Virus record (IMG/VR): IMGVR_UViG_2548876695_000014
Strand: one strand, 5' to 3'
Length of the DNA: 4,733 bases
DNA from: a virus
Lineage: Duplodnaviria; Heunggongvirae; Uroviricota; Caudoviricetes
Shown here: piece by piece, positions 288 through 4,609 of the stretch
Layout: each line of letters begins with the position of its first letter
How positions within the stretch are numbered: position 1 is the first letter of the stretch
Program-made: the position numbers and the translations under genes
Notes under the pieces: model-generated
What the model was told of the DNA's origin: nothing
The model's database searches: none
What the model saw: the letters and a program-made list of their open reading frames with translations, nothing else

Positions 288-869
288 TTAAAGCTGCATC
301 AACCTTTCCACCAGTTTATCTCTGCGAACAACAAACCAACCATTGGCTCTCGCCAGTTCCAGCCATGACTCAAGGGAAATAACAATATCATCATCCCGTA
401 ACTGAATTGTGGAAACAGTGACACCGCCTCTCTGATAACAGAGAACTCGCGTGTCGTAACTTTTCTGGCATGAAACTGGCGCTGACGGATCCTTTTGTCT
501 GAAATAGCAGTCTTCCAGCTTTTCGAACACATCCCACGCCTGATCGGTTTCCAGCATTTTGGCATGACGGGCTGCTCCGCGTTCTGTCCAGAGGATGAGG
601 GAGCGGGCTTTCGGGGAAATTTGTAACCCTCTTAAAGATGGTTGCAAATTTTGTGAGTAGTTTAAAGCTACCCGCAAATTTTTCAGGGCATCGCCAGCCA
701 CTTTGAAAAAATGCTTTCCTTCAATAAAGCGCTCAGCATTTCTGGCGTAGTTATTTTGAATGTTCTTAACTCCAGCACCGTACAACTGCGCCAAAAGTTC
801 GGTGGTAATAACAGGAATCTGGTTATGGGTGATCGGGGAGAGAGTTTCAATAGAAATTTGAGTTGTCAT
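288..869 (-). CDS. Antirepressor-like DNA-binding protein, 193 aa (ORF6N/Rha-type N-terminal domain suspected)
   Basis: Full ORF from ATG 869..867 to TAA 290..288; AGGG Shine-Dalgarno 7 nt upstream. N-terminal region (...VITTELLAQLYG...NAERFIEGKHFFKV...LILWTERGAARHAKMLETDQAWDVFEKLEDCYF) matches my memory of phage antirepressor N-terminal domains. Family assignment not verified by search. Confidence 0.6.
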   Translation of the reverse strand: MTTQISIETLSPITHNQIPVITTELLAQLYGAGVKNIQNNYARNAERFIEGKHFFKVAGDALKNLRVALNYSQNLQPSLRGLQISPKARSLILWTERGAARHAKMLETDQAWDVFEKLEDCYFRQKDPSAPVSCQKSYDTRVLCYQRGGVTVSTIQLRDDDIVISLESWLELARANGWFVVRRDKLVERLMQL

Positions 870-910
870 AATGACGCCCTCTGGTGGTTTCTAAACCATC
901 ACCACCGTCA

Positions 911-921
911 GGTTCCTAATC
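911..921 (+). repeat. GGTTCCTAATC motif, copy 1
   Basis: Exact 11-mer, identical to the copy at 1077-1087; sits in the loop of a CACCACC/GGTGGTG hairpin. Confidence 0.6.
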
Positions 922-942
922 ATCGGGTGGTGAGACGTACAG

Positions 943-952
943 GGTTAGGAAC
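943..952 (-). repeat. Inverted copy of the same motif (GTTCCTAACC read on the minus strand)
   Basis: Plus 943-952 is GGTTAGGAAC, the reverse complement of GTTCCTAACC; differs from the direct copies at one position (T to C). Confidence 0.55.
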
Positions 953-1030
953 TACCGGGAAACCAACCGGCGAGCTTTTCAGCTCCCCCATACGCCCCAC
1001 CATAATTCAGATGTGCGCGTGCATACGACA

Positions 1031-1054
1031 ATAAAAAACACGCTCGCGGCGTGT
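1031..1054 (-). terminator. tR'-like intrinsic terminator downstream of the Q-like gene
   Basis: On the minus-strand RNA: stem ACACGC / GCGUGU (plus 1038-1043 and 1049-1054), 5-nt loop, then a U tract (plus A-run 1033-1038). About 80 nt downstream of the predicted start site of the 1117-1146 promoter. Confidence 0.5.
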
Positions 1055-1076
1055 GTCTGTCGCGGTCTCTATCCGG

Positions 1077-1087
1077 GGTTCCTAATC
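1077..1087 (+). repeat. GGTTCCTAATC motif, copy 2
   Basis: Exact 11-mer, flanked by CCGGG and CCCG; lies inside the short leader between the late-type promoter and its terminator. Confidence 0.6.
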
Positions 1088-1116
1088 CCGACGCCAGATT
1101 TTGCTGGCGCGTGAGG

Positions 1117-1146
1117 AATATAGCCCCGGATAACAGATTGAGTCAA
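1117..1146 (-). promoter_or_regulatory. Strong sigma70-type promoter directly after the Q-like stop codon (pR'-like late promoter candidate)
   Basis: On the minus strand: -35 TTGACT (plus 1141-1146, overlapping the TGA stop), 18-nt spacer, -10 TATATT (plus 1117-1122); predicted start near plus 1110-1112. The first 20 nt of the transcript can form a CGCCAG/CUGGCG hairpin (plus 1092-1109). Confidence 0.5.
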
Positions 1147-1697
1147 CAGACAGTTTTTAAATACCCGGAAGAGAATGCATCACGCATCGGCAGATAGAGC
1201 ATATATTCAGCAAGATTTAGCCATACATCTACCCGACTGCAGCACGTCCGAAAACACCACTCAGGGTGTGCATCATTTAGCAATTCAGCCATTTTGCGCT
1301 TACTCATCCCCCGCCCTTCATATCTTTGCCGGAGGATACAAATCAATCCTGGGTGTTCTGCCAGCACTTCACTAATCACCCGATCAATGCATAACGCCTC
1401 TGCATCAGTACAATGCACCAGCCAGCTTTTTTGCTTGCCGTTGATCATATCCCGCAAAAAAGCCTCAAGTTCAGGTTTGTCCAAACCTGCTTTTTTCATC
1501 CTCCGGAGCGCCTCGTTAATTGCCGTTTTTGTCAGCTTTTTAGAGGTCAGCAACTGGTTGAACATATTTCCCGTCTTACCGCCGCCAATATACGACCAGC
1601 GCCCCCACATGCGCAGTTTTCCCTGAATCCAGACACTTTCCAGCGTGGTGAGACGAAGGTGCTCTCCGCTTTTTCCTGTGTTCGTTGGGTAAATCAT
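1143..1697 (-). CDS. Q-like late-gene antiterminator candidate, 184 aa (positional call; family unverified)
   Basis: ATG at 1697..1695 overlaps the upstream TGA in an ATGA junction; GGAG/AGGA Shine-Dalgarno 9 nt upstream. The 224-aa track ORF is an in-frame extension back into the upstream gene. It is the last gene of the nin-like module and is followed at once by a promoter and terminator, as Q is in lambdoid phages. It contains a Cys/His cluster (HC-x6-C ... HPEWC-x3-CC). It does not resemble the lambda Q sequence as I recall it. Confidence 0.5.
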   Translation of the reverse strand: MIYPTNTGKSGEHLRLTTLESVWIQGKLRMWGRWSYIGGGKTGNMFNQLLTSKKLTKTAINEALRRMKKAGLDKPELEAFLRDMINGKQKSWLVHCTDAEALCIDRVISEVLAEHPGLICILRQRYEGRGMSKRKMAELLNDAHPEWCFRTCCSRVDVWLNLAEYMLYLPMRDAFSSGYLKTVC

Positions 1698-1984
1698 AAA
1701 TAACCGTCCTTTCTCCAGATCTCTTGTGTGCGAAAAACACCTTCTGCATGCATCAGGCGCAATTCTTCTTTGGTGTAATCGCTGGTTTTTACTCTCCCGT
1801 CGATTAAATCGTGGCATGAGTTACAGGCAATCGCCGCCTGCATATCGTGTGGTTTTGTCGCTGTTCCGCACGTCCCCGCCAGCCTGTAATGCGCCAGCAC
1901 AGAAGTTTCGGGATTGTGATTGCAGTAGCCAGGAATTCTGACTGTGCACATCTGCCCCCGCGCCGCTTTACGTAAATCCACCAT
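1694..1984 (-). CDS. ybcO: YbcO-like prophage protein (DUF1364 family, Cys-rich putative zinc-binding nuclease), 96 aa
   Basis: Full ORF; ATG 1984..1982 overlaps the upstream TAA in a TAATG junction. Sequence LRKAARGQMCTVRIPGYCNHNPETSVLAHYRL...ACNSCHD closely matches my memory of E. coli DLP12 YbcO, including the C-x7-C and C-x2-C spacing. Confidence 0.75.
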   Translation of the reverse strand: MVDLRKAARGQMCTVRIPGYCNHNPETSVLAHYRLAGTCGTATKPHDMQAAIACNSCHDLIDGRVKTSDYTKEELRLMHAEGVFRTQEIWRKDGYL

Positions 1985-2583
1985 TACGCAAACTCCAGTA
2001 ACTGCGCGGCCACATTTTCGACTTCCTCCGGAGAGGAAAATTTACGGAACAGGATCCAGTTCCACAGCACATTCAGTACAGATTTATAAACCTGCTGAAA
2101 CTCGGTTTCGTCCATGTTCGCAAATGCGATAGATTTTGCCCTGCGCCCACGACTACCGTCCGGATAAAAATGTTCGGTGTAAAATCCGGCCTGAATGGTT
2201 ACCCATTCGCGAAAAGCGTCAAAGGACTTGAGTAAGGCCGTATCCCGGGTTCTGCAAGTCGTAACGGTGTTAAGGTATTGCTCTGCGGCATCACTCAGGG
2301 CTGGCGTATGTTCCCGACCTACTGATTCGCACAGGAAATCAACGAAACCGGACACCAGTTCTCGTTCGCGAGGCGTGATCGCCCCACCGTTCGGAGTCCA
2401 GTAATCGAATCCCAGTTGCAGGAGTTTGAAAAAACGCTTGTGGAACGCGTAGTTACGCACTCGCTTAAAGTCCGCGTGTATCCACTCACCTATTTTGATT
2501 TGATGCAAAAAATCGCAACTCTCCGGCGTCGCCGGGAGAAGTAATCCGGAAGAGGTTTGTTTGACCAGTTGTATATGCGCCAT
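1984..2583 (-). CDS. nin-region protein, DUF1367-like, 199 aa
   Basis: ATG at 2583..2581 with GGAG 7 nt upstream; the track start at 2595 is a TTG four codons further up. The stop overlaps the YbcO-like start. Family call rests on my recollection that DUF1367 proteins sit next to DUF1364 in prophage nin regions; unverified. Confidence 0.55.
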   Translation of the reverse strand: MAHIQLVKQTSSGLLLPATPESCDFLHQIKIGEWIHADFKRVRNYAFHKRFFKLLQLGFDYWTPNGGAITPRERELVSGFVDFLCESVGREHTPALSDAAEQYLNTVTTCRTRDTALLKSFDAFREWVTIQAGFYTEHFYPDGSRGRRAKSIAFANMDETEFQQVYKSVLNVLWNWILFRKFSSPEEVENVAAQLLEFA

Positions 2584-2642
2584 TGCTGTCTCCAATGGCG
2601 CTGTAGGTTGCCAGTTGTTCAGGCTGGCTTACGAATTATAAC

Positions 2643-2925: not shown

Positions 2926-2978
2926 CAAACGAAGGTCGGTTTAGTGGAGGAATCGGCTAAAACTTGATCTGTTAAAGT

Positions 2979-3004
2979 AAAAAACCCGCCGAAGCGGGTT
3001 TTTT
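2979..3004. terminator. Bidirectional intrinsic terminator ending the AT-rich operon
   Basis: GC stem CCCGC / GCGGG (2985-2989 and 2994-2998) with loop CGAA, flanked by a 6-A run (2979-2984) and a 6-T run (2999-3004), so it is followed by a U tract on either strand. It lies 6 nt past the stop of the 130-aa gene. Confidence 0.7.
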
Positions 3005-3009
3005 GTATA

Positions 3010-3402
3010 TTACATACTCTCAATGTCATTTTTTAGTGAGTGCTTGTGTAACTCCATGGAGTAATCAACATCACGAAGAGTTTTTTCAATCTGCTTGCTT
3101 CTCAGGGTGGCAAGCGCATTATCAATTGACACTTTTTCTTCATCTGAAGCATCAGCTCTCATTTTCGTAAGAGTCTTACGAGCCCTTGCCACATCCACCT
3201 TGAAACGTACGTCCTCTATGCTAGGTACGTTAACAAACGTAAGAAGTAGCAAAAAGAAGTGAGCAATAACAACAGCAACCCCAGGGAGAAATGCGTTGAT
3301 ATCAGCAGGTAACCCAATATATGCGCTAGCCTTGACCAATAGGTAATTTGCCACCGGTGTGCACCACGCTTGGCTTGCAACATACTTAGATTGTTGAATC
3401 AT
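3010..3402 (-). CDS. Small membrane protein, 130 aa: hydrophobic N-terminal segment(s), charged helical C-terminal half
   Basis: ATG 3402..3400 overlaps the upstream stop (ATGA); GAGG 6 nt upstream. Strongly hydrophobic stretch LPGVAVVIAHFFLLLLTFVNV, then a Lys/Arg/Glu/Asp-rich tail. AT-rich codons. No family recognised. Confidence 0.65.
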   Translation of the reverse strand: MIQQSKYVASQAWCTPVANYLLVKASAYIGLPADINAFLPGVAVVIAHFFLLLLTFVNVPSIEDVRFKVDVARARKTLTKMRADASDEEKVSIDNALATLRSKQIEKTLRDVDYSMELHKHSLKNDIESM

Positions 3403-3638
3403 GAAGTGCCTCGCGTTAAATCACGCTGAACCTCACTCAACGTGGACGCGAGCTCACGTGCATCCTTTGCATCCAACTGAACTTCGCAATAATGCCTAAC
3501 TCCACATCGATCTATATAAGTAAATTTGAGTGTCTTACTTGGTTTAAGCCAAACCAAAAAATGATATACAGCAAAACGAGCCAACATAAAGGCGGCAACA
3601 AAAACCGTAATCATCAACATGACACTTAAATAAGGCAT
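3399..3638 (-). CDS. Small membrane protein, 79 aa: single N-terminal transmembrane helix
   Basis: ATG 3638..3636, only 8 nt after the stop of the upstream gene. Hydrophobic residues 3-31 (YLSVMLMITVFVAAFMLARFAVYHFLVWL) followed by a polar C-terminus. No family recognised. Confidence 0.65.
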   Translation of the reverse strand: MPYLSVMLMITVFVAAFMLARFAVYHFLVWLKPSKTLKFTYIDRCGVRHYCEVQLDAKDARELASTLSEVQRDLTRGTS

Positions 3639-3646
3639 ATTATTAC

Positions 3647-4516
3647 CTATACGATTCGACGTTCAGCTGCGGCGCGATGCCGTACAACCTGCGTGATAAT
3701 GTATGCTGGATTCCCCAATACACCATTAGTTTCTTTGACTCTTTTTGTCACATTCACTACAAAAAGATCATCTTTACTGAATGACGCTTCGTTTAAATTT
3801 ACTCGCTCAAGAAAACCAGCATCCGCCATCTTAACCTTTACATCCTCGCCGTCTGGCAATACCATCCTCCAATCTGTATCGGAAGTAAAGCTCAGCTTAG
3901 AAAACTTGACGTTTAAGGTCAATGAGTCTTCATGTGTATGTTGTACAACCGTATTATTCACTTTTTTAAAAGAAACAGATTGCTCTTGCGAAATAGAGAC
4001 AATCTCCTCCCCACTTGAGTTTTTTACTCTAAACGACGAGTTTTTTTCAGTTTGCAGAGGAGTGTGTACCAATTTACTCATTTCATTGCGGATCGTAGAG
4101 TTTGTAACGAGCTTTTGTACGTCATTTGAACACTCAAATCGCTCATTATCAACAACAAAAGTCGCTCGGTTATTGGCTTCATCTATAACAACCTCATGTG
4201 GCTTTCGCCCTCGCAACCATTCTACAACCCCAACCAAACTCCCAGCACTTGCGCCGGTGGCAACAGAAAGCCCCAAGAGTTGCAAAGTAGATAAACTACC
4301 CAAAACAGAGACAAGAACAGTAAAAGATCCTTCCTGAATTGCCTTAATACTAACCCTAGTTGTTGCAGTCTCACCGTGGATAATTTTCTCTGCATTATCA
4401 ATCAAATTACTTAATGAAGACAGAGCATCACCAAGCATTTTAGCATCGATCTCATTATTCGCATATGCATCCCCAGCATATGCAATCTCAAGCTCTGTTA
4501 CCTGTTGGTCGGTCAT
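3647..4516 (-). CDS. Hypothetical protein, about 289 aa, with an internal hydrophobic hairpin carrying a G-x3-G-x3-G motif; first gene of the AT-rich operon
   Basis: Long minus-strand ORF, stop TAG 3649..3647. Two in-frame ATGs: 4534 has no Shine-Dalgarno, 4516 has GGTGGAG 9 nt upstream, so I prefer 4516. Hydrophobic stretch encoded near 4220-4327 includes TGASAGSLVG. No Walker or other enzymatic motif seen. No family recognised. Confidence 0.7.
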   Translation of the reverse strand: MTDQQVTELEIAYAGDAYANNEIDAKMLGDALSSLSNLIDNAEKIIHGETATTRVSIKAIQEGSFTVLVSVLGSLSTLQLLGLSVATGASAGSLVGVVEWLRGRKPHEVVIDEANNRATFVVDNERFECSNDVQKLVTNSTIRNEMSKLVHTPLQTEKNSSFRVKNSSGEEIVSISQEQSVSFKKVNNTVVQHTHEDSLTLNVKFSKLSFTSDTDWRMVLPDGEDVKVKMADAGFLERVNLNEASFSKDDLFVVNVTKRVKETNGVLGNPAYIITQVVRHRAAAERRIV

Positions 4517-4609
4517 GAAGTTCAACTCCACCATAAAAAATATGCAAAATAATTAACAGTATTTTCACTTTATGGCGGGTGCGTTGAGGATGCCTGACAC
4601 ATCAGAGGT

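What the first reader, a model, noticed from the sequence alone, without database searches (positions are those of the whole stretch)
911..1087. Three copies of GGTTCCTAAYC (two direct, one inverted) in the late leader region
An exact 11-mer occurs at 911-921 and 1077-1087, and a one-mismatch inverted copy at 943-952, each near a CCGG element. Three copies of a 10-11-mer within 180 bp of non-coding sequence are very unlikely by chance. Copy 2 lies inside the short leader RNA; copy 1 and the inverted copy lie between the terminator and the antirepressor-like gene. They may be operator or binding sites (for the Q-like protein, the ORF6N-type protein or a host factor) or conserved RNA elements. 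The motif resembles a tRNA T-arm but does not fit one.
Basis: seen in the sequence. Interest (0 to 1): 0.55.

Follow-up and report, generated by a model that had tools for sequence, protein, structure and literature searches.

The report
C4 antisense RNA switch for antirepressor
The three repeated 11-mers are the matching recognition sites (a1, a′, a2) of a well-known phage RNA switch, the P1-type C4 antisense RNA with its IsrK-like leader, which keeps a prophage antirepressor gene silent; the repeat is real and functional, but the system is already known.

Summary
GGTTCCTAAYC occurs three times, against 0.10 expected by chance.

All genes here lie on the minus strand, and the repeats make sense only as RNA. 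Three curated Rfam models match above their thresholds: isrK (1110..1033), c4-a1b1 (1123..1070) and C4 antisense RNA (1007..923).

- Copy 2 is site a1, in a hairpin loop of the short terminated leader.
- The inverted copy is a′, the single-stranded junction of the C4 RNA.
- Copy 1 is a2, in a hairpin loop upstream of the ORF6N antirepressor gene.
- A second matched set is present: b1 1069..1063, b′ 966..959 and b2 891..885, which abuts the Shine-Dalgarno sequence.

The layout is collinear with the annotated immI region of phage P1.

In 28 distinct homologous modules, a1:a′ and a′:a2 pair in 100% of sequences. Five of the eight pairs show compensatory changes. Five a-types and four b-types reassort independently. 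The type does not track either neighbouring protein.

The most likely mechanism is that C4 blocks translation of the antirepressor at a2/b2, while the leader's a1/b1 act as decoys, as in Gifsy-1 IsrK.

Its "conserved RNA element" alternative is right. Verdict: already known, low interest.

The parts
1117..1146 (-). Sigma-70-type promoter of the module: -35 TTGACT at 1146..1141, an 18-nt spacer, and -10 TATATT at 1122..1117.
   Evidence: Found by the consensus scan and located exactly. TTGAC plus TATATT is retained in modules with at least six different upstream contexts. It is collinear with the P1c4 (P51b) promoter annotated in phage P1. Promoter activity was not tested.
1033..1110 (-). IsrK-like short leader RNA: hairpin 1 (1110..1092), hairpin 2 (1090..1074), and an intrinsic terminator with U-run (1054..1033).
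   Evidence: Rfam isrK RF01394 scores 69.4 bits against a gathering score of 50. c4-a1b1 RF03163 scores 47.8 against 46.7 at 1123..1070. The predicted fold is and the terminator scan. Hairpin 1 has three compensatory pairs among homologues.
1077..1087 (-). The RNA reads GAUUAGGAACC, with core UUAGGAAC at 1085..1078, in the 9-nt loop of leader hairpin 2.
   Evidence: Searches give the position. Its mean unpaired probability is 0.89. It pairs with a' in 28 of 28 homologues, with 5 of 8 pairs compensatory. It occupies the same position as the a1 site annotated in P1.
1063..1069 (-). Site b1 (GAGACCG), just 3' of hairpin 2. It is complementary to the b' loop, with two G-U pairs.
   Evidence: Position. 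Cognate duplex energies are more favourable than non-cognate ones. It occupies the same position as b1 in P1.
926..1001 (-). Predicted mature C4-type antisense RNA, about 76 nt. The Rfam match spans 1007..923. It has a long closing stem, hairpin 1, hairpin 2 and a single-stranded junction.
   Evidence: Rfam C4 RF01695 scores 67 bits against a gathering score of 45. The MFE fold is -42.9 kcal/mol, z = -4.5, and matches the family structure. Ten compensatory pairs occur in the closing stem and hairpin 1. The ends are inferred by homology to the annotated 77-nt C4 RNA of P1 and were not measured.
959..966 (-). Recognition element b': the loop UUGGUUUC of C4 hairpin 2.
   Evidence: Unpaired probability is 0.99. 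The loop changes in step with b1 and b2 across four types.
943..953 (-). The RNA reads AGUUCCUAACC, with core GUUCCUAA at 952..945, in the single-stranded junction of C4.
   Evidence: Unpaired probability is 0.97. Covariation with a1 and a2 is shown.
911..921 (-). The RNA reads GAUUAGGAACC, with core at 919..912. It lies in the loop of a hairpin whose arms are 933..926 (the 3' end of C4) and 906..899.
   Evidence: (inverted repeat I9). a':a2 is paired in 28 of 28 homologues, with 5 of 8 pairs compensatory. The hairpin is 100% paired with one compensatory pair. It occupies the same position as a2 in P1.
885..891 (-). Site b2 (GAAACCA), 3 nt upstream of the Shine-Dalgarno sequence GAGGG (881..877) of the ORF6N gene.
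   Evidence: In other types b2 includes the SD itself, for example GUACGGAG. In P1, b2 overlaps the SD of icd.
288..869 (-). The regulated gene: a 193-aa ORF6N-domain protein, a predicted antirepressor equivalent to Gifsy-1 AnrP.
   Evidence: Pfam ORF6N, E = 4e-19. PHROG anti-repressor families, best E = 2.8e-90. A homologue occupies the same position in Salmonella locus L085. Function is taken from annotation and was not tested.
1143..1700 (-). Upstream context gene: a DUF1133, Q-like protein equivalent to Gifsy-1 AntQ. It is not an obligatory part of the cassette.
   Evidence: Pfam DUF1133, E = 1e-106, with a weak Phage_antitermQ match. PHROG 'anti-termination protein Q-like'. It is found upstream of the ORF6N gene in 56 of the 78 loci examined, and in 11 of the 15 loci that carry the window's own a'/b' type.

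Best explanation
The three copies are the a1, a' and a2 elements of a P1 immI-type C4 antisense-RNA switch. All are read on the minus strand. The switch controls translation of the downstream ORF6N antirepressor gene.

A constitutive-looking promoter (1146..1117) makes a leader with two hairpins and an intrinsic terminator. Terminated transcripts form a short IsrK-like RNA (1110..1033). Read-through transcripts continue through the C4 RNA (about 1001..926) into the antirepressor mRNA.

C4 folds into a long stem that presents two single-stranded recognition elements. These are a' (GUUCCUAA, 952..945) and b' (UUGGUUUC, 966..959). They pair with a2 (919..912) and with b2 (891..885, abutting the Shine-Dalgarno sequence at 881..877). 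This pairing would block ribosome binding and keep the antirepressor off in the lysogen.

The leader carries a second copy of both targets, a1 in a hairpin loop and b1. These can pair with the same a'/b'. In cis this locks the read-through transcript. In trans the short leader acts as a decoy that titrates C4 and de-represses the antirepressor.

The exact a and b sequences define the specificity (immunity) type of the module.

Shown here: the family matches, the structures, the positions and the three-way covariation. Inferred from the P1 and Gifsy-1 homologues: repression of translation, the decoy role, and processing of C4.
For: - **Curated model matches.** Three Rfam models match above their gathering scores at collinear positions: isrK 69.4 vs 50, C4 67 vs 45, c4-a1b1 47.8 vs 46.7.
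- **Collinearity with P1.** The same three models hit the immI region of phage P1 in the same order; C4 and c4-a1b1 pass their gathering scores there, while isrK scores 35.1 against 50. The P1 record annotates promoter, a1, b1, c4 RNA, a2, b2/SD and then the regulated ORF, in the same order as in the window.
- **Presentation of the sites.** The C4 fold leaves a' and b' unpaired (unpaired probabilities 0.97 and 0.99). a1 lies in a hairpin loop.
- **Covariation of the a set.** In 28 distinct modules (alignment A1), a1:a' is paired in 100% of sequences, with 5 of 8 pairs changed on both sides. A 1-nt insertion is present in all three sites only in the window type. a':a2 gives the same result. Controls with the partner slid by 1-3 columns pair only 34-44%.
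- **Covariation of the b set.** It switches independently among four types. Cognate duplex energies average about -8.5 kcal/mol, against about -3.5 for different types.
- **More distant modules.** P1 and a Salmonella module (L085) each have their own matched triples.
- **Independence from neighbouring proteins.** The motif type does not follow either one.
- **Literature.** Weinberg et al. 2010, Additional file 1, describes the a'/b', a1/b1, a2/b2 scheme and the decoy proposal of Citron & Schuster 1990. In Gifsy-1, compensatory mutations G28/G31 with C162/C159 proved that the middle hairpin of IsrK pairs with the downstream region. IsrK supplied in trans raised anrP translation more than 100-fold (PMC4825925). 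IsrK and the downstream stable RNA STnc1160 are highly expressed in lysogens (PMC7067206).
Against: - No expression, processing or binding data exist for this locus. The C4 ends are set only by homology.
- There is no icd-like leader ORF in the window. The P1 route, in which translational repression of icd causes transcriptional polarity on ant, cannot apply as such.
- b2 abuts the SD in the window type but does not cover it.
- In Gifsy-1, the authors explained activation by a cis structural switch and translational coupling through 'orf45', not by a processed trans-acting C4. Constitutive expression of the orf45/STnc1160 region did not relieve IsrK toxicity and in fact enhanced it. This does not fit a simple picture of C4 as repressor.
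- Thermodynamic cofolding without pseudoknots shows no net gain for C4 plus target. Such programs cannot model loop-loop contacts.
Confidence: 0.85

Rival explanations
1. IsrK-only cis/trans structural switch, as proposed for Gifsy-1. The repeats are arms of alternative helices within one long transcript. The short leader RNA opens the inactive fold so that a small upstream ORF ('orf45', starting at the AUG in UUAUGG) is translated. The antirepressor is then expressed by translational coupling. No separate processed C4 repressor RNA is needed.
For: The MFE fold of the whole window transcript pairs a1 with a', like 'structure A' in PMC4825925. The mutational and gel data in that paper support a1:a' pairing in cis and in trans. 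The window has an ORF starting at the same AUG (1003..920, 27 aa).
Against: - The equivalent small ORF is 14 to 36 aa long or open, with a different stop position in different modules. In the window it ends 50 nt before the antirepressor ATG, so coupling by overlap is impossible.
- This model does not explain why a2 and b2 covary with a' and b'.
- It does not explain why the region is a covarying C4 fold.
- It does not explain why a stable RNA (STnc1160) accumulates from it.
- It is best seen as one facet of the C4 switch rather than as an alternative.
Confidence: 0.1
2. Termination control of the phage P4 CI / seqA-seqC type. The C4-like RNA pairs with a1/b1 on the nascent leader and with a2/b2 downstream to change transcription termination. 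This could act at the leader terminator or by Rho, rather than blocking translation.
For: a1/b1 lie directly upstream of the leader terminator. Hershko-Shalev et al. point to P4 SeqA as a structural homologue of IsrK and raise this possibility. IsrK in trans raised a transcriptional fusion 8-fold.
Against: - b2 consistently abuts or includes the SD of the regulated gene in every type, and in P1. That points to control of translation.
- The translational fusion responded far more strongly than the transcriptional one, 139-fold against 8-fold.
- No alternative antiterminator pairing was seen in the folds.
Confidence: 0.04
3. The three copies are DNA operator sites for a sequence-specific protein, such as the Q-like DUF1133 protein, the ORF6N protein or a host factor. 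Their co-variation would reflect co-evolution of protein and operator.
For: Two direct copies and one inverted copy that change together could in principle be operators. The promoter spacer is conserved.
Against: - The motif type is uncoupled from both neighbouring proteins.
- The sites lie in loops and junctions of covarying RNA structures and match three RNA family models.
- G-U pairs are tolerated: one a1:a' pair is G-U in L068, and the window's b1:b' pairing needs two G-U pairs.
- None of the three copies overlaps the promoter.
- The homologous sites in P1 and Gifsy-1 were shown genetically to act as RNA.
Confidence: 0.01

Closest known systems
Phage P1/P7 immI operon: c4 antisense RNA - icd - ant (Citron & Schuster 1990; Rfam RF01695 and RF03163)
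   Same: The order of parts is the same: promoter, hairpin 1, hairpin 2 with a1 in its loop, b1, leader terminator, C4 RNA (b' in the hairpin-2 loop, a' in the junction), a2 in a hairpin loop, b2 at the SD, then the regulated ORF. The RNA fold is the same, as is the 5'-GGUGGGG...CCACC-3' end pattern. The target is an antirepressor. Specificity is set by the a and b sequences.
   Different: There is no icd gene; b2 and the SD directly precede the antirepressor gene. The antirepressor is an ORF6N-domain protein; I did not compare it directly with P1 Ant1/2. The host element is a lambdoid prophage, not a P1 plasmid prophage. No C1 operator is annotated or evident. The a and b sequences differ (a: UUAGGAAC against UUGACAG).
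Salmonella Gifsy-1 antQ - isrK - orf45 - anrP locus (Hershko-Shalev et al. 2016, PMC4825925; Rfam RF01394; STnc1160)
   Same: The gene order is the same: Q-like DUF1133 gene, leader sRNA with terminator, structured RNA, ORF6N antirepressor. Rfam finds isrK and C4 above threshold in a Salmonella homologue. The a1:a' helix corresponds to their experimentally proven helix b-I. This equivalence is my inference, based on its position in the middle hairpin.
   Different: The window's small ORF inside C4 is 27 aa and does not reach the antirepressor start, so the orf45 coupling step is not conserved. The specificity type differs. None of the held papers that I found by text search names the Gifsy-1 downstream RNA as a C4 homologue.
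Phage P4 CI RNA with seqA/seqC
   Same: It is a processed immunity RNA cut from the same transcript that it controls, with one complementary target upstream and one downstream. Hershko-Shalev et al. name it as a structural analogue.
   Different: According to the Gifsy-1 paper, P4 CI acts by causing premature transcription termination. Here the targets sit at a ribosome-binding site. No Rfam P4 CI-type match was found in the window.
Lambda-type PR' late leader (6S RNA / StxS) terminated at tR'
   Same: It is a short, constitutively made, terminated leader RNA downstream of a Q-like gene. Sy et al. 2020 group IsrK with such RNAs.
   Different: This module precedes an antirepressor in the nin region, not the lysis and late genes. 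It also occurs without a Q-like gene upstream. It contains an antisense RNA and two sets of target repeats, which PR' leaders lack.

Membership tests
C4 antisense RNA (Rfam RF01695) / P1 immI-type switch | Covariance-model score at or above the curated gathering score | tested here: met
   67.0 bits against 45, E = 5.8e-12, full-length match at 1007..923 on the minus strand.
C4 antisense RNA (Rfam RF01695) / P1 immI-type switch | Long closing stem enclosing two hairpins and a single-stranded junction, supported by covariation | tested here: met
   The MFE fold equals the family structure, z = -4.5. The closing stem has 5 compensatory pairs and hairpin 1 has 5 of 5, with 100% of cells paired in 28 sequences.
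C4 antisense RNA (Rfam RF01695) / P1 immI-type switch | Two recognition elements (a', b') complementary to a2/b2 downstream and to a1/b1 upstream on the same transcript | tested here: met
   a1:a' and a':a2 are paired in 28 of 28 sequences, with 5 of 8 pairs compensatory. The b set matches in a type-specific way. The order is the same as in the P1 annotation.
C4 antisense RNA (Rfam RF01695) / P1 immI-type switch | Target b2 at the ribosome-binding site of the first downstream ORF | tested here: met
   b2 at 891..885 lies 3 nt from the SD at 881..877, within a 30S footprint. In other types b2 contains the SD itself.
C4 antisense RNA (Rfam RF01695) / P1 immI-type switch | The regulated operon encodes an antirepressor | tested here: met
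   Pfam ORF6N and PHROG anti-repressor families. This rests on annotation only; activity was not tested.
C4 antisense RNA (Rfam RF01695) / P1 immI-type switch | icd-like leader ORF whose translation is needed for ant expression | tested here: not met
   No ORF lies between b2 and the antirepressor ATG. The only small ORF (1003..920) lies inside C4 and is not conserved in length. This is a feature of P1 itself, not of the RNA family.
C4 antisense RNA (Rfam RF01695) / P1 immI-type switch | Mature ~77-nt RNA produced by processing (RNase P at the 5' end) from the co-transcript | not testable with these tools
   The 5'-GGUGGGG and ...CCACC-3' ends are conserved with P1. Processing itself needs RNA data. 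The RNase P substrate status of C4 comes from Hartmann et al. 1995, as cited in PMC11143913.
isrK Hfq-binding RNA (Rfam RF01394) | Covariance-model score at or above the gathering score; two 5' hairpins plus an intrinsic terminator | tested here: met
   69.4 bits against 50.
isrK Hfq-binding RNA (Rfam RF01394) | Genomic context antQ-like gene - isrK - antirepressor | tested here: met
   A DUF1133/Q-like gene lies upstream and an ORF6N gene downstream. The order is the same in Salmonella locus L085.
isrK Hfq-binding RNA (Rfam RF01394) | Activation through translation of orf45 coupled to the antirepressor gene | tested here: not met
   The window's equivalent ORF is 27 aa and stops 50 nt upstream of the ATG. 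Its length varies from 14 to 36 aa or more among homologues.
isrK Hfq-binding RNA (Rfam RF01394) | Hfq binding | not testable with these tools
   This needs co-immunoprecipitation or CLIP data.
Q-dependent late promoter leader (lambda PR'-6S-tR' type) | Lies between the late antiterminator gene and the lysis/late operon | tested here: not met
   In a Stx2a phage the module lies between ninE and an antirepressor, four genes upstream of the annotated Q. In the O145 prophage the tRNA and lysis genes lie about 3 kb downstream, behind other genes.
tRNA or tRNA-derived element | Cloverleaf or T-arm recognised by tRNA models | tested here: not met
   ARAGORN found no genes. There is no Rfam tRNA match in the window at E <= 10.

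The most novel reading that the evidence does not exclude
IsrK and C4 have been treated separately in the literature that I could search. They may be two halves of one switch: the IsrK leader would be the a1/b1 decoy and STnc1160/'orf45' would be the C4 repressor RNA. The two recognition sets come in at least 7 a-types and about 6 b-types that reassort independently among lambdoid and Stx prophages. They could form a combinatorial RNA 'immunity code'. This code would decide which co-resident prophages can silence, or fail to silence, each other's antirepressors, and so which prophages are cross-induced in strains carrying several of them, such as EHEC.
Probability: 0.45. Interest if true: 0.45.

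Novelty: already known. Interest (0 to 1): 0.2.

Why it matters
It explains a striking repeat without any new biology. The copies are the specificity determinants of an RNA-based immunity switch that guards an antirepressor, and so guards prophage induction.

The practical value is for annotation. RefSeq leaves this 270-bp stretch unannotated, yet related sequence at megablast level is found in 774 of 5,426 complete E. coli genomes, with up to 4 places per genome, and in many Stx-converting phages.

The comparative data also link three things that are described separately: the Gifsy-1 IsrK locus, the P1 c4 system and the Stx-phage antirepressor region. They show a clean, modular a/b type system. 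That system could be used to predict cross-talk between prophages or to build orthogonal RNA regulators.

Tried and rejected
- **tRNA or T-arm remnant.** ARAGORN and Rfam found nothing.
- **Protein operator sites.** Rejected because the motif type is uncoupled from the ORF6N and DUF1133 proteins, and on the RNA evidence.
- **Late-promoter (PR') leader.** Rejected on genomic context.
- **The 'fourth copy' at 886-896.** It is the b2 region, not an a-type site.
- **The small ORF inside C4 as a conserved coding gene.** Its length and stop position are not conserved.
- **Whole-molecule RNAduplex and RNAcofold of C4 with leader or target.** Uninformative. duplexfold ignores intramolecular structure, and cofold cannot model loop-loop contacts (ddG 0).
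- **My own naming error.** My first labels had a and b swapped. I corrected them against the P1 GenBank annotation.
- **Original P1 papers.** PMC312442, PMC41593 and PMC196329 are not held. Details of the P1 mechanism therefore rest on secondary descriptions and on general knowledge.
- **Genome-contig scan with the DUF1133 protein.** It gave only 11 loci, of which only L085 was used.

Full report
**Observation.** The window has GGTTCCTAATC at 911-921 and 1077-1087 on the plus strand. An inverted copy, AGTTCCTAACC, lies at 943-953. With one mismatch allowed there are 3 matches, against 0.10 expected, and none of 200 shuffles reached 3. Copy 2 lies in a short leader that ends at an intrinsic terminator (1054..1033). 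The other two copies lie between that terminator and the ORF6N gene, whose ATG is at 869. The remark that each copy is near a CCGG holds for copy 2 and the inverted copy only.

**Strand and context.** Every sizeable ORF in the window is on the minus strand.
- DUF1367 gene: 2595..1984.
- YbcO/DUF1364 gene: 1984..1694.
- DUF1133 gene: about 1700..1143. It gives a weak Phage_antitermQ match in Pfam and matches 'Q-like' families in PHROGs.
- ORF6N gene: 869..288. PHROGs calls it an anti-repressor.

The 270-bp gap that holds the repeats must therefore be read as minus-strand RNA. A promoter-like site lies at 1146..1117 (TTGACT, 18 nt, TATATT).

**What it is.** Rfam gives three matches above the curated thresholds, all on the minus strand:
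- isrK, 1110..1033, 69.4 bits against 50.
- c4-a1b1, 1123..1070, 47.8 bits against 46.7.
- C4 antisense RNA, 1007..923, 67 bits against 45.

The C4 segment folds at -42.9 kcal/mol (z = -4.5). The fold is a 17-bp closing stem, a GAAA-capped hairpin, a second hairpin with loop UUGGUUUC, and a 9-nt single-stranded junction, AGUUCCUAA. The leader folds into two hairpins plus the terminator. The loop of the second hairpin, AUUAGGAAC, is copy 2. Copy 1 lies in the loop of a hairpin formed by the 3' end of C4 (933..926) and 906..899.

**Comparison with P1.** The GenBank record of phage P1 annotates this series: promoter P1c4, a1 (TTGACAG), b1 (GTTAGTGC), the 77-nt c4 RNA, a2 (TTGACAG), b2 (GTTAGTGA, overlapping the icd SD), icd and ant1/2. 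Rfam finds C4, c4-a1b1 and a sub-threshold isrK match there in the same order. By position:
- A second set is present in the window: b1 GAGACCG (1069..1063), b' UUGGUUUC (966..959) and b2 GAAACCA (891..885). b2 lies 3 nt from the SD GAGGG (881..877).
- The predicted mature C4 is 1001..926, by homology with the P1 ends.

**Comparative test.** I fetched 80 IMG/VR loci that encode ORF6N homologues. They gave 28 distinct promoter-to-ATG modules.
- Helix a1:a' (8 bp) is paired in 28 of 28 sequences, and 5 of the 8 pairs change on both sides.
- Helix a':a2 gives the same result.
- A 1-nt insertion occurs at all three sites only in the window type.
- Controls with the partner slid by 1-3 columns pair only 34-44%.
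- There are five a-types: UUAGGAAC, UUAGCAC, UUGGCGU, UUGGAAC and UUGAGAC.
- There are four b-types, and they reassort with the a-types.
- Cognate a and b duplexes are 3-7 kcal/mol more stable than duplexes between different types.
- The internal helices of C4 and leader hairpin 1 also covary.
- P1 and a Salmonella module (L085) each add their own matched triples.

The motif type does not follow the neighbouring proteins. The window type occurs with ORF6N proteins that are 60-99% identical, and with DUF1133 upstream in 11 of 15 loci. The promoter hexamers are kept behind at least six unrelated upstream sequences. The mobile unit is therefore promoter, leader, C4, targets and antirepressor.

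**Genomic position.** The identical 291 bp occurs in E. coli O145 and O157 prophages, and RefSeq annotates nothing between the DUF1133 and ORF6N genes. In Stx2a phage F349 the module is confirmed by Rfam. There it lies between ninE and an antirepressor gene, and roi, ninG, a phosphatase gene and the late antiterminator Q follow. So this is a nin-region antirepressor control cassette. It is not the PR' late leader.

**Mechanism.** The literature gives these points.
- Weinberg et al. 2010 (Additional file 1) summarise the P1 model. The a' and b' elements of C4 pair with a2/b2 upstream of ant, and one of these sites overlaps the ribosome-binding site. a1/b1 upstream of c4 were proposed to compete for C4 and so free a2/b2.
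- c4 RNA represses Ant synthesis and underlies P1/P7 heteroimmunity.
- The C4 precursor is an RNase P substrate (reference listed).
- In Gifsy-1, the locus antQ-isrK-orf45-anrP has the same gene order. Compensatory mutations G28/G31 with C162/C159 proved that the middle hairpin of IsrK pairs with a downstream segment. IsrK in trans raised anrP translation 114- to 171-fold. A stable RNA, STnc1160, is processed from the read-through transcript.
- IsrK and STnc1160 are abundant in lysogens.

I infer that the Gifsy-1 helix b-I is a1:a' and that STnc1160 is the C4 homologue. Rfam finds both isrK and C4 in the Salmonella homologue L085.

The most likely mechanism in the window has three steps. C4 is cut from read-through transcripts. 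It then binds a2 and b2 by loop and junction contacts and occludes the SD of the ORF6N gene. The leader's a1/b1, in cis or as the short terminated RNA in trans, sequester a'/b' and relieve the block. Structure, position and covariation are shown here. Repression, the decoy action and processing are inferred.

**Differences from the models.**
- There is no icd gene.
- The small ORF that starts at the AUG in the 5' strand of C4 (Gifsy-1 'orf45') is 27 aa in the window and ends 50 nt before the antirepressor ATG.
- Among homologues this ORF is 14-36 aa long or open. Translational coupling through it is therefore not a conserved feature.

**Rivals.**
- The Gifsy-type cis-only switch is a facet of the same system. 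It does not explain the covariation of a2/b2.
- P4-type termination control is possible as an added layer. The SD-adjacent b2 argues against it as the main mode, as does the much larger translational than transcriptional response in Gifsy-1.
- DNA operator sites are disfavoured.
- A tRNA origin is excluded.

**Novelty.** The element is a member of curated families that were described in 1990 (P1/P7), 2008-2016 (IsrK) and 2010 (C4 and c4-a1b1 in prophages). Its sequence is common in E. coli. I rate it already known.

One modestly new point concerns the link between the two systems. No held paper that I found by searching for papers naming both IsrK and C4 antisense equates them, and a 2025 review lists them as separate systems. 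The modular reassortment of a and b types among lambdoid and Stx prophages has not, to my knowledge, been laid out before.

Noticed in passing
window 3647-4534 (-), with 3399-3638 (-) and 3010-3402 (-): The 295-aa ORF matches the PADLOC candidate defence family PDC-S42 (E = 1.2e-46) and PHROG 3243, whose function is unknown. Two small ORFs follow it (79 and 130 aa, hydrophobic stretches), and their only database matches are PHROGs of unknown function. This could be an anti-phage defence cargo inserted in the nin region.
   Followed up: partly
window 1124-1132 and 1070-1078: A perfect 9-nt inverted repeat, UAUCCGGGG / CCCCGGAUA on the minus strand. It links the promoter spacer with the 3' arm of leader hairpin 2. 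It matches the optional 'third stem' that Weinberg et al. 2010 noted for c4-a1b1. It could form only in transcripts that read in from the upstream gene. The spacer sequence CCGGGGC is conserved across unrelated upstream contexts.
   Followed up: partly
L064 1371-1454 and L066 1368-1451: In two viral contigs a second small-RNA module (Rfam sRNA-Xcc1, 76-79 bits), with what looks like its own promoter, sits between the isrK/C4 module and the ORF6N gene. In L064 the C4 module looks recombined: a2 is of a different type from a', and b2 is missing.
   Followed up: partly
window 920-1003 (-): A 27-aa ORF starts at the AUG inside the 5' strand of C4. It is the positional equivalent of Gifsy-1 'orf45'. 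Its length ranges from 14 to 36 aa among homologues, and in L035/L036 it stays open up to the antirepressor ATG. It is probably a by-product of the RNA sequence rather than a conserved gene.
   Followed up: yes
window 2974-3085: A strong bidirectional terminator-like hairpin (AAAAAACCCGCCGAAGCGGGTTTTTT, about 2978-3003) separates the 58-aa ORF from the 130-aa ORF. Around a dozen weak, sub-threshold Rfam matches pile up here. They look like terminator look-alikes.
   Followed up: no
E. coli complete genomes and phage records: Sequence related to this 291-bp region at megablast level is found in 774 of 5,426 complete E. coli genomes, with up to 4 places per genome. It is also found in 248 phage records, mostly Stx-converting phages. 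I could not examine whether co-resident copies carry different a/b types, because only one place per record is listed.
   Followed up: no
window 1143-1817 (-): The longest DUF1133 ORF (224 aa, from 1817) overlaps the preceding YbcO gene. RefSeq annotates a 184-aa product that starts at MIYPTN, near 1697, and this matches the Pfam model from its first position.
   Followed up: partly
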